Assembly (NCBI RefSeq): GCF_013315695.1
Contig: NZ_CP054353.1
Source of the DNA: Escherichia coli
Lineage (GTDB): Bacteria > Pseudomonadota > Gammaproteobacteria > Enterobacterales > Enterobacteriaceae
Length of the DNA: 64,000 nucleotides
Strand: one strand, 5' to 3'
Shown here: positions 1-20,707 of the stretch, piece by piece
Layout of the letters: each line of letters opens with the position of its first letter
Position numbering within the stretch: position 1 is the first letter of the stretch
Made by a program: the position numbers and the translations under genes
Notes under the pieces: generated by a model
The model's database searches: none
The model's input: only the letters and a program-made list of their open reading frames with translations
What the model was told of the DNA's origin: nothing

Positions 1-459
1 ATCTCCTGGCTCAATGGTTGGACACATACTGTCCCCACGAACGTTGATAACTTTAATGTGATTTGCTGGTCGTCCACCAAACATCGATACAGCATTATCA
101 GTTCTGTATTCAATGGCATGAATCACATCAATGACATCACCGCCCTGGATAAGGCCATTTCCCGCACTGGCACTGACATCCAGCATTTCAATACGGAATA
201 CATCCTTCACCTGCGTAACATCCTCACTAATACTGTTTTTACATACAGTATTACTTTTGAGGTCTGAGGTAAAGAGATCAGCAATATCAACACCTAAGCT
301 CCTGGCAATATTACTCAGGGCTTGTTCAGTGAATTGTTTCTGCTTACCTGTTTCGAGGCGCGAGATATTCGCCGCATCCACTCCTATTGCTTCAGCGAGA
401 TCGGCGATTTTCATGTTCTTCGCCTGGCGAAGTTGTCTGACTCGATTTCCTATGTTCAT
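1..459 (-). CDS. cI-like prophage repressor (HTH plus S24 LexA-like peptidase domain); N-terminus in window, C-terminus runs off the 5' edge
   Basis: Minus-strand translation from ATG at 459 gives MNIGNRVRQLRQAKNMKIADLAEAIGVDAANISRLETGK (XRE HTH) and later ...VINVRGDSMCPTIEPGD (S24 Ser motif GDSM). Divergent from a cro-like gene. Confidence 0.8.
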   Translation of the reverse strand, partial: MNIGNRVRQLRQAKNMKIADLAEAIGVDAANISRLETGKQKQFTEQALSNIARSLGVDIADLFTSDLKSNTVCKNSISEDVTQVKDVFRIEMLDVSASAGNGLIQGGDVIDVIHAIEYRTDNAVSMFGGRPANHIKVINVRGDSMCPTIEPGD

Positions 460-10691: not shown

Positions 10692-10767
10692 GGCCCTTTA
10701 GCTCAGTGGTGAGAGCGAGCGATTCATAATCGCCAGGTCGCTGGTTCAAATCCAGCAAGGGCCACCA
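10692..10767 (+). tRNA. ileZ: tRNA-Ile2 (anticodon CAU, ileX/ileZ-like)
   Basis: 76 nt cloverleaf GGCCCTT...AAGGGCC-A-CCA; anticodon loop TTCATAA; close to the E. coli ileX sequence. Confidence 0.8.
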
Positions 10768-10774
10768 TCACATA

Positions 10775-10851
10775 CCGCCATTAGCTCATCAGGATAGAGC
10801 GCCAGCCTTCGAAGCTGGTTGCGCGGGGTTCGAGTCCTCGATGGCGGTCCA
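10775..10851 (+). tRNA. argN: tRNA-Arg (anticodon UCG)
   Basis: 77 nt; acceptor CCGCCAT/ATGGCGG; anticodon stem-loop CCAGC-CTTCGAA-GCTGG; T-loop GGTTCGAGTCC; 3' CCA. Confidence 0.8.
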
Positions 10852-10864
10852 TTATCTGTACCCT

Positions 10865-10941
10865 GCGTTATTAGCTCAGCCGGACAGAGCAATTGCCTTC
10901 TAAGCAATCGGTCACTGGTTCGAATCCAGTACAACGCGCCA
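10865..10941 (+). tRNA. argO: tRNA-Arg (anticodon UCU)
   Basis: 77 nt; anticodon loop CCTTCTAAG; T-loop GGTTCGAATCC; 3' GCCA; one acceptor-stem mismatch. Confidence 0.8.
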
Positions 10942-16216: not shown

Positions 16217-16738
16217 ATGAATATCGTGCCACTTAATTACAAAGGTGAAATTGTCAGTTTCAACACTGATGGTTGGATCAACGTCACAGGTGTTGCTGAG
16301 AGATTTGGAAAACGCATTGATAACTGGATGCGTTTGGCAGAAACGCTTGAATACGTTCGTGCTTTAGACGAAGCGTTGACCGGGAAAGAATCTCAAATTT
16401 TACATCCCTCACAATCGAGGTATGTAAAAACCAGCAAGGCACGAAAGGACAGGGGTGGTGGTACGTGGCTACATCCAAAACTTTCAGTTGCATTTGCCCG
16501 TTGGTGTGATGCTCGTTTTGCTGTGTGGTGCGACCTGCACATTGATAGTCTGCTTCGCGGTGAACTGACTGAGCAGCAGAAATATGAGCAAGCATGTCGC
16601 ATTCGCGATGACCGGAAATCAAAAGCCAGCAATGGGGCAAGAGAGATGGCTCGCTGGCGATGGGATAAGCCGGTTATTGAAGCAAATGTTGAGTACTGGC
16701 GCGAGCAACTGCAGTTGACTCTCGATATCGCGTGCTGA
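16217..16738 (+). CDS. KilA-N domain protein (second copy in this prophage)
   Basis: 173 aa; GGTWLHPKLSVAFARWCDARFAVWCDLHI is the KilA-N core. Confidence 0.55.
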   Translation: MNIVPLNYKGEIVSFNTDGWINVTGVAERFGKRIDNWMRLAETLEYVRALDEALTGKESQILHPSQSRYVKTSKARKDRGGGTWLHPKLSVAFARWCDARFAVWCDLHIDSLLRGELTEQQKYEQACRIRDDRKSKASNGAREMARWRWDKPVIEANVEYWREQLQLTLDIAC

Positions 16739-17719: not shown

Positions 17720-17905
17720 TTACTTAATTATGTAATTCATACCCGAACTCTCTGTTGACAGCCTTCTTCTGCAGGCTTCAATAACCCACGCTGAAAAGTT
17801 TCCTGAACCTTTCAGATCAAGAGCGATGTTAATTTGTTCAATCATCTGGTTTGGAAATCGGATGTTGCGGGTTGTTGTTCTGCGGGTTCTGTTCTTTGAT
17901 GACAT
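17720..17905 (-). CDS. Ribbon-helix-helix (CopG/Arc-like) DNA-binding protein
   Basis: 61 aa; RNIRFPNQMIEQINIALDLKGSGNFSAWVIEACRRRL fits the beta-strand/helix/helix RHH pattern; AT-rich promoter-like region upstream (17906-18060). Confidence 0.5.
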   Translation of the reverse strand: MSSKNRTRRTTTRNIRFPNQMIEQINIALDLKGSGNFSAWVIEACRRRLSTESSGMNYIIK

Positions 17906-18112
17906 AATGTTTCCCCATATTCAGTGTTGCTGATTTGTATTATCTGAAGTTGCTTTTACGTTAATTTGATGCAGATCAATTAATACGATACCTGCGTCAT
18001 AATTGATTATTTCTCGTGGTTTGATGGCGTACACACATGTTGTGATAAACCTTATATAGATGATAATCATTATCATTTTCGTGGGTCCTTTCCGGCGATC
18101 CGACCGGTTACG

Positions 18113-18124
18113 GGGCGGCGACCT
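18113..18124 (+). other. cosN cohesive-end site (lambda-type)
   Basis: ACGGGGCGGCGACCTCGCGGATTTTCACTATTTATGAAAATTTTCCGG matches the lambda cos region (GGGCGGCGACCT 12-nt cohesive end, then TCGCGGGTTTTCGCTATTTATGAAAATTTTCCGG) just upstream of Nu1. Confidence 0.7.
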
Positions 18125-18308
18125 CGCGGATTTTCACTATTTATGAAAATTTTCCGGGATCCATGTCCGGTTTCTCTGCAAGTTAACCATATGAAAAATA
18201 TAAAAACATGCTTTCCATGAACCGGGCATGCGCAAAAAATAGACACTAAAACCGGACATGACCGGTTTTGTTGTGATTGTGAGGTGAGAGTTTTTTGCGA
18301 GGTGAGGA

Positions 18309-18818
18309 GTGGCTACGCAGACTGAAGTTGCCAGGCATTTAAGTCTGACCGATCGCCAGCTTCGCAGATTGCAGAAATTGCCGGGTGCCCCGATATCGAA
18401 TAAGCGAGGGCAACTGGATCTGGATGCCTGGCGCGATTTTTACATATCGTATCTGAGAAGAAGTAAAAACGATGTGCCTGATGGCGATAGCGAAGACGAC
18501 TATGAGGAGAAATTGCTTATTGCCAGATGGGAACTGACAGCAGAACAGGCTGTTACACAGCAGTTAAAAAATGAGGTGTCAAAAGGAAAACTTATTGACA
18601 CCGGGTTCTGTATTTTTGCCCTCAGCAAGCTGGCAATGGCGTTATCCAGTACGCTTGATTCCATCCCTTTATCCATGCAGCGACAGTTTCCTGATTTAAC
18701 ACCGCGCCATCTTGACCATCTGAAAACCCTTATTGCGAAGGGGGCAAATCAGTGTGCGCGGGCGGGGGATAAATTACCGGATTTACTCGATGAATATATC
18801 AGAGCAACAACTGAATAA
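18309..18818 (+). CDS. nu1: Terminase small subunit (lambda Nu1 homolog)
   Basis: C-terminal half ...TGFCIFALSKLAMALSSTLDSIPLSMQRQFPDLTPRHLDHLK...LLDEYI parallels lambda Nu1; GTG start downstream of cos. Confidence 0.85.
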   Translation: MATQTEVARHLSLTDRQLRRLQKLPGAPISNKRGQLDLDAWRDFYISYLRRSKNDVPDGDSEDDYEEKLLIARWELTAEQAVTQQLKNEVSKGKLIDTGFCIFALSKLAMALSSTLDSIPLSMQRQFPDLTPRHLDHLKTLIAKGANQCARAGDKLPDLLDEYIRATTE

Positions 18819-20707
18819 TATGATGAGTGCTGTCACAACAGCATTACAGCCCCTGATAAGGGCATTGCCGGTGACGCCAGTTGAATGGGCTGATCAAAAT
18901 TATTATCTGCCTAAAGAATCTTCATATGGTGAGGGAGAATGGAAAACGCTGCCGTTCCAGATCGCCATCATGAACAGCATGGGGAATGATCAGATCCGGA
19001 CTGTTAATCTGATTAAATCTGCCCGTGTTGGCTATACAAAGATGTTGCTGGGGGTGGTCGGGTATTTTATTGAGCATAAATCCCGAAACAGTCTGCTTTT
19101 TCAGCCCACGGATTCTGCCGCTGAAGATTTTATGAAGTCTCACGTGGAGGCGACGATTCGGGATGTGCCATGTCTGAAAGACCTTTCTCCATGGCTGGGG
19201 CGTAAACATCGTGACAATACTCTCACGCTGAAACGCTTTTCATCGGGTGTGGGCTTCTGGTGCCTGGGCGGCGCTGCCGCCAAAAACTACCGTGAAAAAT
19301 CCGTGGACGTGGTCTGCTATGACGAACTTTCCTCGTTCGAACCGGATGTCGAAAAAGAGGGTTCGCCAACCCTGCTTGGGGATAAACGTATTGAGGGCTC
19401 TGTATGGCCCAAATCCATTCGCGGCTCGACGCCTAAAATCAAAGGCACCTGCCAGATCGAAAAAGCGGCCAACGAGTCGGCGCATTTCATGCGTTTTTAT
19501 GTGCCCTGCCCGCACTGTGGGGAGGCGCAGTATCTGAAATTTGGCGATGAGTCCACGCCTTTTGGCCTTAAATGGGAGAAGGACAGCCCCGAAAGCGTTT
19601 TCTACCTCTGTGAACATCATGGCTGCGTGATCCATCAGTCTGAGCTTGACCAGAGCAACGGGCGGTGGATCTGTGAAAACACGGGGATGTGGACCCGCGA
19701 CGGTCTGACGTTTTTCAGCGCTGCGGATAATGAAATTCCGCCGCCGCGCTCCATCACATTCCATATCTGGACGGCGTACAGTCCGTTCACCACCTGGGTA
19801 CAGATTGTCTATGACTGGCTGGATGCACTGAAAGATCCCAACGGCCTGAAAACCTTTGTGAACACCACGCTGGGCGAGACCTGGGAAGAGGCCGTGGGCG
19901 AAAAACTCGATCACCAGGTGCTGATGGATAAGGTTGTGCGTTACACGGCTGCGGTGCCTTCCCGGGTGGTTTATCTGACGGCGGGCATTGACTCGCAGCG
20001 AAACCGTTTTGAGATGTATGTCTGGGGATGGGCTCCGGGAGAGGAAGCCTTTCTGGTGGATAAAATCATCATTATGGGGCGTCCCGATGAGGAAGAGACG
20101 CTGTTACGTGTGGATGTGGCGATCAACAAAAAATACCGCCATGCAGACGGAACCGAAATGACCATTTCCCGTGTCTGCTGGGACACCGGGGGGAATTGTC
20201 TATCAGAGGTCAAAAAAACACGGTGTTTTCCGGGTGCTGCCGGTAAAAGGTGCATCTGTTTATGGCAAGCCGGTGATCACCATGCCAAAAACCCGCAATC
20301 AGCGGGGCGTGTATCTGTGCGAAGTGGGGACGGACACCGCAAAAGAAATTCTCTATGCCCGTATGAAAGCCGATCCCACGCCTGCGGATGAAGCCACGTC
20401 GTATGCCATCCGTTTTCCTGATGATCCGGAGATTTTTTCGCAGACAGAGGCGCAGCAACTGGTGGCGGAAGAGCTTGTGGAGAAGTGGGAAAAAGGAAAG
20501 ATGCGTCTGCTGTGGGATAACAAAAAGCGGCGTAACGAAGCGCTGGACTGCCTGGTGTATGCCTACGCGGCATTACGTGTGTCCGTGCAACGCTGGCAGC
20601 TTGATCTGGCTGTACTGGCAAAATCCCGGGAAGAAGAGACGACCCGGCCAACCCTTAAAGAACTGGCAGCGAAGCTGTCCGGAGGAGTGAATGGTTACAG
20701 TCGCTGA
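18790..20707 (+). CDS. A: Terminase large subunit (lambda gpA homolog) with an apparent +1 frameshift in a G6 run near 20188-20193
   Basis: Two overlapping ORFs (18733..20391 and 20171..20707) together align with lambda gpA (...ISRVCWDTGG | IVYQRSKKHGVFRV...); the frame changes at CCGGGGGGAATT. Confidence 0.8.

What the first reader, a model, noticed from the sequence alone, without database searches (positions are those of the whole stretch)
18100..18130. Lambda-type cos site upstream of Nu1
The 12-nt cohesive-end sequence GGGCGGCGACCT and the flanking TCGCGG-TTTTC-CTATTTATGAAAATTTTCCGG are almost identical to lambda cos. This fixes the packaging origin and shows that the region from the second KilA-N gene to cos is the right end of the phage genome.
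Basis: partly seen in the sequence, partly recalled or inferred. Interest (0 to 1): 0.35.

Follow-up and report, generated by a model that had tools for sequence, protein, structure and literature searches.

The report
Lambda-like cos site, non-lambda cosB
This is a genuine lambda-family DNA-packaging (cos) site in an E. coli prophage: its cutting and termination signals match lambda's, but its terminase-docking repeats and the matching small-terminase DNA-binding domain are of a different, common and untested type, and the prophage's own large terminase gene is broken.

Summary
The 12-mer GGGCGGCGACCT occurs once, at 18113-18124. It lies in a 387-bp stretch (17771-18157) that is 88% identical to the lambda right end, cosN and the first 45 bp of the left end, including cosQ GGGTCCT at 18083-18089.

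From 18158 onwards nothing is lambda. cosB carries four copies of CATGNCCGGTT (18162-18268), the only four in 64 kb. An IHF-like core lies between the first two copies.

The small terminase (18309-18818) resembles lambda Nu1 only in its C-terminal half (46% identity). Its N-terminal DNA-binding domain is divergent.

In 11 diverged relatives from several enterobacterial genera and metagenomes, the first repeat keeps its position and, in the ten with a complex cosB, so does the second. The repeat sequence co-varies with one recognition-helix residue (Arg with G; Asp/Asn/Thr with T). The same pattern separates phage 21 from lambda.

I read this as a lambda-like cos whose cosB/TerS pair is probably a distinct packaging specificity, different from lambda, 21 and N15. 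It is found in 1142 of 5426 complete E. coli genomes and in plaque-forming PhiR12 phages.

This copy's large terminase has a unique 11-bp deletion that truncates the nuclease domain. The site can therefore only be used in trans. This is an ordinary kind of element and of modest interest.

The parts
17771..18082 (+). Right-end region of the virion chromosome, homologous to the last ~340 bp of lambda DNA. It is mostly non-coding and overlaps the 3' part of a minus-strand YlcI/YnfO (DUF3950) ORF at 17720-17905.
   Evidence: Megablast gives 88.4-88.9% identity to lambda, HK629, HK630 and DE3 over window 17771-18157. Alignment A1. Pfam DUF3950 for 17720-17905 on the minus strand.
18083..18089 (+). 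cosQ (GGGTCCT), the packaging-termination subsite, at -30 to -24 relative to the first base of the cohesive end.
   Evidence: It has the same sequence and the same distance from the end as the cosQ annotated in the phage 21 record OL657228. GGGTCCT is found in every relative with sequence there (one contig starts too close to the gene to show it), and the longer GGGTCCTTTCC in the seven relatives. Its conservation is stated in PMC4669245.
18113..18124 (+). cosN cohesive-end sequence GGGCGGCGACCT. By analogy with lambda, the inferred nicks fall before 18113 on the top strand and after 18124 on the bottom strand.
   Evidence: Exact single match. Identical to lambda and phage 21 cosN. The nick positions are inferred, not measured.
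18125..18157 (+). cosN-to-cosB spacer (CGCGGATTTTCACTATTTATGAAAATTTTCCGG). It is conserved with lambda and phage 21 and contains an IHF-like core at bp 30-42, which is lambda's I2 region.
   Evidence: Two differences from lambda, at 18130 and 18136. Both are minority variants among 39 natural variants. The IHF-like TATGAAAATTTTC at bp 30-42 is present in nearly all relatives. The label I2 comes from my own knowledge of lambda.
18162..18173 (+). R3-equivalent small-terminase binding site, CATGTCCGGTTT, at bp 50-61 from the cohesive end.
   Evidence: Invariant in 39 of 39 natural cos variants linked to this TerS. The CCGG core sits at bp 55-56 in the ten diverged relatives that could be placed on the cos scale. 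Lambda R3 is at bp 50-65 (PMC9026076).
18184..18196 (-). I1-equivalent IHF-like core (TTTCATATGGTTA on the minus strand, bp 72-84), followed by an A/T-rich tract.
   Evidence: It has 2 mismatches to WATCAANNNNTTR. That is not significant alone, since shuffles give about 2 such hits per region. Relatives carry 0-1 mismatch cores at bp 72-86, against 0.2 expected. Lambda and phage 21 I1 lie at bp 74-86.
18219..18230 (-). R2-equivalent site, inverted relative to R3 (CATGCCCGGTTC on the minus strand, bp 107-118). It carries a minority A-to-G variant at 18226.
   Evidence: The core sits at bp 108-109 in the ten relatives with a complex cosB. The G at 18226 differs from the nearest relatives but is shared by a few other prophages, including E. 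coli CE10.
18249..18268 (.). Third and fourth R-like copies forming a near-palindrome: CATGTCCGGTTT on the minus strand (18249-18260) overlapping CATGACCGGTTT on the plus strand (18257-18268). This is the R1-equivalent region.
   Evidence: Essentially invariant among the 39 variants. A minus-strand third copy is also present in L089 (bp 138) and L084 (bp 151). It is absent from the relatives with short cosB. The region also scores as a terminator-like hairpin.
18309..18818 (+). Small terminase (TerS, 169 aa, GTG start at bp 197). It has a divergent N-terminal winged-HTH-like DNA-binding domain and a Nu1-like C-terminal half.
   Evidence: Pfam Phage_Nu1 covers residues 49-150 only. Identity to lambda Nu1 is 46% over residues 73-164. 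phrog_57 matches full length. The A2 alignment places its helix RQLRRLQK on lambda's RTIQNWQE. The AF2 model shows strand, helix, helix, wing, helix, with pLDDT about 83 in the N-terminal domain. RefSeq annotates the identical gene as terminase small subunit.
18790..20707 (+). Large terminase (TerL/gpA-type) pseudogene. An 11-bp deletion after 20193 shifts the frame at about codon 468 of 643, giving a stop at 20391. The rest of the gene continues in another frame to 20707.
   Evidence: Alignment to E. coli N1 and translation. Pfam GpA_nuclease is truncated at profile position 159 of 294, against 286 of 294 in the intact homologue. The deletion is found in none of 1704 complete E. coli genomes that carry this segment.

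Best explanation
The site is the cos (cohesive-end) packaging site of a lambdoid prophage. Its layout follows the lambda plan: cosQ, cosN, spacer, then R3, I1, R2 and one or more further R sites, then terS and terL.

Shown directly:
- cosQ, cosN and the spacer are lambda-identical or nearly so.
- cosB is a different sequence built from CATGNCCGGTT repeats.
- TerS has a divergent N-terminal domain.

Inferred mechanism, by analogy with lambda and phage 21:
- Dimers of the TerS winged-HTH domain bind R3 (bp 50-61) and the inverted R2 (bp 107-118) across an IHF-induced bend at I1.
- This positions TerL to make the two nicks 12 bp apart at cosN.
- cosQ together with cosN ends packaging at the next cos.

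The R sites and the recognition helix differ from lambda, 21 and N15. The cosB/TerS pair therefore probably sets its own packaging specificity, while the ends (GGGCGGCGACCT) stay compatible with lambda.

In this particular prophage TerL has lost half of its nuclease domain and its C-terminus. The cos is intact, but it can only be cut and packaged if a co-resident prophage of the same cosB class supplies terminase.
For: (1) The match to lambda covers 387 bp at 88%, including cosQ at -30 to -24 and cosN.

(2) All four CATGNCCGGTT matches in 64 kb lie within 18162-18267, against 0.21 expected. R3 starts at bp 50, as in lambda and phage 21.

(3) Footprinting across 39 natural variants shows invariant R sites and variable spacers.

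(4) In ten relatives with 61-80% TerS identity that carry a complex cosB, the R3 core stays at bp 55-56 and the R2 core at bp 108-109. An IHF core with 0-1 mismatches lies at bp 72-86.

(5) All R copies within a genome change together, and they change with TerS helix residue 20. Arg pairs with ..ATGTCC. Asp, Asn or Thr pairs with ..TTTCC or CTTCC. This holds in 12 of 12 cases, including three loci fetched as a prediction test. Lambda (Asn21, T56) and phage 21 (Arg21, G56) follow the same rule.

(6) A relative with the same C-terminal half but an N15/Monarch-like N-terminal domain has GGTGGTTGTTGT repeats instead (N15 R3 is given in PMC4669245).

(7) Phages PhiR12_1 to PhiR12_5, recorded on K-12 and C hosts, carry the same TerS (99.4%) and cosB (98.8%) with an intact TerL.

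(8) The TerL frameshift is documented.

(9) There is a precedent for packaging in trans. Sakai prophage Sp4 was most likely packaged by the terminase of Sp14, whose cos is nearly identical (PMC2669165). Genomes carrying this cosB class have a median of 2 copies.
Against: - No binding, cutting or end-sequencing data exist for this cosB class. The nick positions and the TerS-R contacts are inferred.
- The window's I1 core has 2 mismatches, which is not significant on its own.
- R2 carries a non-consensus G at 18226.
- The best third R copy is in the same orientation as R2, unlike lambda's R1. It forms a palindrome that also fits a hairpin or terminator pattern.
- The fold search gave only weak winged-HTH, MerR and excisionase matches (E > 0.3).
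- The helix-base covariation rests on 12 related sequences that are not phylogenetically independent.
- The literature assigns the lambda/21 contact at bp 56 to Glu24, not residue 21.
- N15 terminase packages lambda DNA despite dissimilar R sites. Distinct sequence therefore does not prove distinct specificity.
Confidence: 0.85

Rival explanations
1. It is a cos site of true lambda specificity: lambda cosB recognised by a lambda-type Nu1. This is what the first reader's title implies.
For: cosQ, cosN and the first 45 bp are lambda-like. The downstream gene hits Pfam Phage_Nu1.
Against: Similarity to lambda ends at 18157. No CGTTTCC-type R site is present. The TerS N-terminal domain has no detectable pairwise similarity to Nu1 residues 1-72. 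The recognition helix differs at 6 of 8 positions.
Confidence: 0.03
2. It is a dead relic. The cos is conserved only by recent descent in a decaying prophage and has no present function in this strain.
For: TerL is frameshifted by a deletion unique among the 1704 genomes carrying this segment. R2 has a non-consensus base. Related prophages often carry IS insertions next to cos.
Against: Every cos subsite is intact. TerS, the portal, and the head and tail genes are colinear at 99.5% with an apparently intact prophage. The R2 variant also occurs in other prophages. Defective lambdoid prophages with an intact cos have been seen to be packaged in trans. This rival concerns present use, not the identity of the site.
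Confidence: 0.1
3. The CATGNCCGGTT repeats are not terminase sites. They could be operators for another regulator, or hairpin or terminator elements. In that case cosB lies elsewhere or is minimal.
For: The 18247-18270 palindrome matches a terminator-like pattern on both strands. Distant relatives L090 and L100 manage with a single site.
Against: The repeats sit at the positions of lambda and phage 21 R3 and R2 relative to cosN, flanking an IHF core. They are invariant while the spacers vary. They co-vary with the TerS recognition helix and swap together with the TerS N-terminal domain.
Confidence: 0.03
4. The 12-mer matches lambda cosN by chance.
For: With one mismatch allowed, 28% of shuffles give a hit.
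Against: The match extends over 387 bp at 88% and over a 47-nt pattern with 0 expected. The gene context is also correct.
Confidence: 0

Closest known systems
Bacteriophage lambda cos (cosQ-cosN-cosB with R3-I1-R2-R1) and terminase Nu1/gpA
   Same: The cohesive-end 12-mer and cosQ heptamer are identical. The right end and the spacer are 88% identical. R3 starts at bp 50, the IHF core lies between R3 and an inverted R2, and terS starts at bp 197 against 191 in lambda. [quoted passage not shown]
   Different: The R-site sequence is CATGTCCGGTT rather than CGTTTCC(G/T)TTCT. The R3 core begins 3 bp closer to cosN. The third R copy is inverted and part of a palindrome. The TerS DNA-binding domain is not alignable pairwise.
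Phage 21 cos and gp1 (the second documented lambda-like packaging specificity)
   Same: cosN and cosQ are identical and cosB is complex. The R sites resemble each other: phage 21 R1 CATGTCGGGCCT against the window's CATGTCCGGTTT, 9 of 12 ungapped. Both have Arg at the same recognition-helix position and G at the corresponding base.
   Different: Phage 21 gp1 is a close Nu1 relative throughout, whereas the window's N-terminal domain is not. The phage 21 core starts at bp 53, not bp 50. The 3' half of the site differs (GGnCCT against CGGTTT).
N15 / Monarch cosB (the third documented specificity)
   Same: The principle is the same: conserved cosQ and cosN joined to a swapped cosB/TerS-DBD cassette. 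This family also has both complex forms (the window) and simple single-R forms (L090, L100), paralleling Monarch and N15.
   Different: The N15/Monarch R site is GAGGTTGTTGTT-like. Locus L091, which has the N15-like N-terminal domain, carries GGTGGTTGTTGT repeats rather than CCGG-type repeats.
PhiR12_1 to PhiR12_5 phages (PV340549-PV340554) and the prophages of E. coli N1, N10 and CE10
   Same: Same cosB (98.8-100%) and TerS (99.4%), and the same gene order.
   Different: They have an intact 643-aa TerL. PhiR12 has a different, non-lambda sequence to the left of about 18061. In those records cos is not annotated, and a small 'hypothetical protein' is called across it.

Membership tests
[quoted passage not shown] | A 12-bp cohesive-end sequence matching lambda's, flanked by the conserved CG dinucleotides | tested here: met
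   ACG|GGGCGGCGACCT|CGCGG at 18110-18129 is identical to lambda and phage 21. The definition is quoted.
Lambda-like cos phages | The 7-bp cosQ at -30 to -24 | tested here: met
   GGGTCCT at 18083-18089 lies at the same distance from the end as the cosQ annotated in phage 21.
Lambda-like cos phages | Virion DNA actually ends in 12-nt 5' overhangs at this site | not testable with these tools
   This needs end sequencing or run-off sequencing of PhiR12-type virion DNA.
Complex cosB (R3-I1-R2-R1) | At least three related repeats, with R2 inverted relative to R3 and R3 at about bp 50 | tested here: met
   There are four copies: a plus-strand copy at bp 50-61, a minus-strand copy at bp 107-118, a minus-strand copy at bp 137-148 and a plus-strand copy at bp 145-156.
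Complex cosB (R3-I1-R2-R1) | An IHF site between R3 and R2 | tested here: inconclusive
   The window's core at bp 72-84 has 2 mismatches, which is at chance level. Relatives have 0-1 mismatches at the same place. Binding was not tested.
Complex cosB (R3-I1-R2-R1) | R1 in the same orientation as R3 | tested here: inconclusive
   The perfect third copy is on the minus strand. An overlapping plus-strand copy has one mismatch. In relatives the third copy, where present, is on the minus strand.
Lambda packaging specificity (cosB-lambda / Nu1) | R sites of the CGTTTCC(G/T)TTCT type | tested here: not met
   No such site lies between cosN and terS. The alignment with lambda breaks down after 18157.
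Lambda packaging specificity (cosB-lambda / Nu1) | The Nu1 winged-HTH with recognition helix RTIQNWQE | tested here: not met
   The helix here is RQLRRLQK. BLASTP aligns only residues 73-164.
Pfam PF07471 Phage_Nu1 / PHROG 57 small terminases | Profile match above the curated threshold | tested here: met
   Pfam gives 67.9 bits against a cut-off of 30, covering residues 49-150 only. phrog_57 matches full length at E = 1.7e-55, and the N-terminal 72 aa alone match at E = 1.7e-11.
Winged-HTH (MerR-like) TerS DNA-binding domain | A strand, helix, helix, wing, helix fold | tested here: inconclusive
   The AF2 secondary structure fits, with helices at 4-10, 15-22 and 38-55 and pLDDT about 83. The best Foldseek hits are winged-HTH proteins (RdfS, RacA, BldC, MerR family, 6hn7), but all have E > 0.3.
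Phage 21 packaging specificity | R sites of the C(A/G)TGTCGGnnCTT type starting at bp 53, and a gp1 DNA-binding domain | tested here: not met
   The sites are similar (9 of 12) but not the same, and they are offset by 3 bp. The DNA-binding domain is not gp1-like.
PICI cos (Rpp-dependent) | cos followed by rpp, with no terminase or head genes | tested here: not met
   This cos is followed by terS, terL, gpW, portal, protease and capsid genes.

The most novel reading that the evidence does not exclude
The CATGTCCGGTT-type cosB and its divergent TerS domain form a fourth lambda-like packaging specificity that has not been tested experimentally. It would be insulated from lambda, 21 and N15 while keeping lambda-compatible cohesive ends, and it is carried by about a fifth of complete E. 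coli genomes. Within the family, a single recognition-helix position appears to read one base of the R site: Arg with G, and Asp, Asn or Thr with T. The same rule separates phage 21 from lambda. If it holds, this is a simple natural code for re-targeting terminase.
Probability: 0.5. Interest if true: 0.4.

Novelty: new member of a known kind. Interest (0 to 1): 0.25.

Why it matters
For annotation, the result fixes the virion map of this prophage: the left end is at 18113 and the right end at 18112. It also shows that small ORFs called across the site are probably spurious.

For biology, it shows how lambdoid phages keep the cutting and termination signals constant while exchanging the recognition cassette, cosB plus the TerS DNA-binding domain. 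This cassette is not among the three specificities documented in the papers I could read (lambda, 21, N15), yet it is very common in E. coli. It decides which co-resident prophages can package each other. That includes defective prophages such as this one, and so it affects the mobilisation of prophage-borne genes.

The helix-base covariation is a testable handle on how terminase specificity is read.

Tried and rejected
- A sequence search of TerS against solved structures found nothing meaningful.
- NCBIfam gave no hit.
- The Foldseek search of the AF2 model gave only sub-threshold winged-HTH matches. The fold assignment stays inconclusive.
- The first scan of viral contigs returned 80 loci, all 99% identical in TerS. 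They were useful for footprinting but not for covariation, so I used diverged protein hits and their contigs instead.
- Literature searches for the R-site strings and for the PhiR12 phages found no description of this cosB class.
- The most relevant survey, Vahanian et al. [quoted passage not shown] I cannot exclude that this class is catalogued there.
- I considered that the window came from E. coli CE10, which has a 100% cosB match. I rejected this because CE10 has an IS3 insertion left of cos and an intact TerL.
- I considered a PICI cos and rejected it on gene content.
- The IHF consensus match in the window alone is not significant. I rely on positional conservation in relatives.

Full report
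**Observation**

The cohesive-end 12-mer GGGCGGCGACCT occurs exactly once in the 64-kb window, at 18113-18124 on the + strand. A 12-mer alone is weak evidence: with one mismatch allowed, 28 of 100 shuffles give a hit. The surrounding sequence settles the matter.

- Megablast aligns window 17771-18157 to lambda, HK629, HK630, 434 and DE3 at 88.4-88.9%. The three-way alignment with lambda (DE3 copy, cos annotated) and phage PhiR12_1 shows the match base by base.
- A 47-nt pattern from cosQ through cosN matches with no mismatch, against 0 expected.
It differs from lambda only at 18130 and 18136, A for G in both cases.

**Genomic context**

Window 1 to about 41,900 is colinear at 99.5% with a lambdoid prophage of E. 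coli strain N1. Host genes (btsS, btsR, yehS and onwards) follow it.

The gene order around the site is holin, lysozyme, Rz, KilA-N (16217-16738), a DUF3950/YlcI ORF on the minus strand, cos, then terS, terL, gpW, portal, protease, decoration protein and capsid. The prophage map is permuted, so cos is internal.

**Where the resemblance to lambda stops**

From 18158 onwards the window no longer aligns with lambda. It is 98.8% identical to phages PhiR12_1 to PhiR12_5 and 99-100% identical to many E. coli prophages.

The small terminase (GTG at 18309, 169 aa) matches lambda Nu1 only over residues 73-164, at 46% identity. Pfam Phage_Nu1 covers residues 49-150 only. The N-terminal 72 residues match only PHROG families (phrog_57 at 1.7e-11; phrog_7289). 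In a 30-sequence alignment this domain lines up with the Nu1 and gp1 winged-HTH. Its helix RQLRRLQK falls on lambda's RTIQNWQE and phage 21's RTIERWQS.

An AlphaFold model (mean pLDDT 77, about 83 in the N-terminal domain) gives strand, helix 4-10, helix 15-22, a loop or wing, then helix 38-55. Foldseek returns winged-HTH proteins first: RdfS excisionase, RacA, BldC, MerR-family regulators and 6hn7 from the PICI/TerS study. None is significant (E > 0.3). I treat the fold as likely but unproven.

**Anatomy of cosB**

Coordinates below count bp 1 as 18113.

- **Repeats.** Four copies of CATGNCCGGTT lie at bp 50-61 (+), 107-118 (-), 137-148 (-) and 145-156 (+). They are the only four matches in the whole window, against 0.21 expected.
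- **R3 position.** The first copy starts at bp 50. The literature and the annotated phage 21 genome place R3 at bp 50-65.
- **IHF core.** Between the first two copies lies TTTCATATGGTTA (minus strand, bp 72-84), followed by an A/T-rich tract. It has two mismatches to WATCAANNNNTTR, which is at chance level on its own. Relatives have cores with 0-1 mismatches at bp 72-86, and I1 of lambda and phage 21 is at bp 74-86.
- **cosQ.** GGGTCCT sits at 18083-18089. This is the same -30 to -24 position as the cosQ annotated in phage 21.
- **terS start.** terS begins at bp 197, against bp 191 in lambda.

**Comparative evidence that the repeats are terminase sites**

First, 39 distinct natural versions of this cos region are linked to a TerS that is 99% identical. 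Among them the R copies, cosQ and cosN are invariant or nearly so, while the spacers vary at many positions.

Second, I fetched the upstream DNA of TerS homologues with 61-80% identity from Klebsiella, E. coli, Salmonella, Citrobacter and Enterobacter genomes and from metagenome assemblies. In all ten with a complex cosB, the R3 core CCGG is at bp 55-56 and the inverted R2 core at bp 108-109. This holds despite divergent spacers and cohesive-end sequences that vary.

Third, the copies within one genome change together, and they change with residue 20 of the TerS helix.

- The window and four relatives with Arg have (C/G/T)ATGTCC.
- Seven genomes with Asp, Asn or Thr have CATTTCC, CACTTCC, GTTTCC or GCTTCC.

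That is 12 of 12. Three of these loci (L097, L098, L099) were fetched afterwards as a test of the prediction. The window's closest relatives (80% and 77% identity) belong to the other class. The pattern therefore does not simply follow overall similarity, though the sequences are not independent.

Lambda (Asn21, T at bp 56) and phage 21 (Arg21, G at bp 56) obey the same rule under alignment A2. The literature attributes the bp 56 contact to Glu24. Which residue reads the base therefore remains a hypothesis.

Fourth, a Klebsiella relative has the same C-terminal half but an N15/Monarch-like N-terminal domain. It carries GGTGGTTGTTGT repeats in the same places. This matches the published N15 R3 sequence GAGGTTGTTGTT.

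**Comparison with known systems**

The Feiss laboratory defines lambda-like phages by their cohesive ends. [quoted passage not shown]

The present site meets the definition and has a complex cosB. Its R sites are closest to those of phage 21: CATGTCGGGCCT against CATGTCCGGTTT, 9 of 12. However, they start 3 bp closer to cosN and differ in the 3' half, and the DNA-binding domain is not gp1-like.

The third copy is inverted relative to R3, unlike lambda's R1. It forms a near-palindrome that also fits a terminator-like hairpin pattern.

Two distant family members (L090, L100) have a single R site immediately before terS. This simple form parallels N15 against Monarch.

I found no description of this cosB class in the papers I could search. 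One relevant survey is not held.

**How common it is, and whether it works**

The 153-bp cosB segment is found in 1142 of 5426 complete E. coli genomes, with a median of two copies per genome that has any. Five phages recorded on K-12 or C hosts carry the same TerS and cosB with an intact 643-aa TerL. This is the best available sign that the system functions.

**This copy is crippled**

Relative to its closest relatives, the window lacks 11 bp (ATCGATGGCGA) after 20193 in terL. The frame shifts at about codon 468 of 643 and stops at 20391. Pfam shows the ATPase domain intact but the nuclease domain cut at profile position 159 of 294. None of 1704 complete genomes with this segment has the deletion. 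It is therefore either specific to this strain or a sequencing or assembly error.

The window also has a minority G at 18226 in R2, which other prophages share.

The cos itself is intact. Its use would need terminase from a co-resident prophage of the same class. The precedent is Sakai prophage Sp4, which lacks an intact terminase and was most likely packaged by the terminase of Sp14, whose cos is nearly identical.

**Verdict**

This is a real and correctly located cos site of the lambda-like group. The label 'lambda-type ... [quoted passage not shown] It does not hold for cosB or the DNA-binding domain, which belong to a common, uncharacterised recognition class.

It is an ordinary kind of element. 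The modest interest lies in the probable fourth specificity and the helix-base covariation.

Noticed in passing
window 18790-20707 (deletion after 20193): The large terminase gene has an 11-bp deletion (ATCGATGGCGA) that shifts the frame at about codon 468 of 643. This truncates the nuclease domain and removes the C-terminus. The deletion is absent from all 1704 complete E. coli genomes that carry this segment.
   Followed up: yes
window 18226: An A-to-G change in the R2-like repeat relative to the nearest relatives. It is a minority natural variant, also seen in E. coli CE10 and in a few IMG/VR prophages.
   Followed up: partly
window 10692-10941: Three tRNA genes inside the prophage: anticodons CAU, UCG and UCU. 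ARAGORN calls the first one Met, while RefSeq annotates the homologue as tRNA-Ile. They lie in the late-region leader downstream of the Q antiterminator gene.
   Followed up: no
window 18073-18246 (minus strand); L001 6077-6199: A 57-aa ORF runs across cosQ, cosN and cosB on the minus strand. PhiR12 records annotate a small 'hypothetical protein' across the same site. These calls are probably spurious.
   Followed up: no
L094 1609-2822 (E. coli CE10); hits H33, H34, H44: Related prophages often carry IS elements in or near this region. CE10 has an IS3-family element immediately left of cos. Other strains have IS903B, IS21 or IS1 within the 6-kb homologous stretch.
   Followed up: no
L090 1-70; L100 300-380: Distant members of the same TerS family have a 'simple' cosB. 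A single R site (TTCCGGTTCCGGTT) lies immediately before the terS start codon, as in N15.
   Followed up: partly
window ~41,300-41,900 and 52,500-59,000: The prophage ends just upstream of btsS (yehU). Further right, the yehI-yehK region of the window diverges from E. coli N1 and is only partly alignable.
   Followed up: no
window 18247-18270: The third and fourth R copies form a 20-bp near-palindrome (AAAACCGGACATGACCGGTTTT). It also scores as a terminator-like hairpin on both strands. In the lambda sequence read here there is an unrelated inverted repeat at a similar position between R2 and R1.
   Followed up: partly
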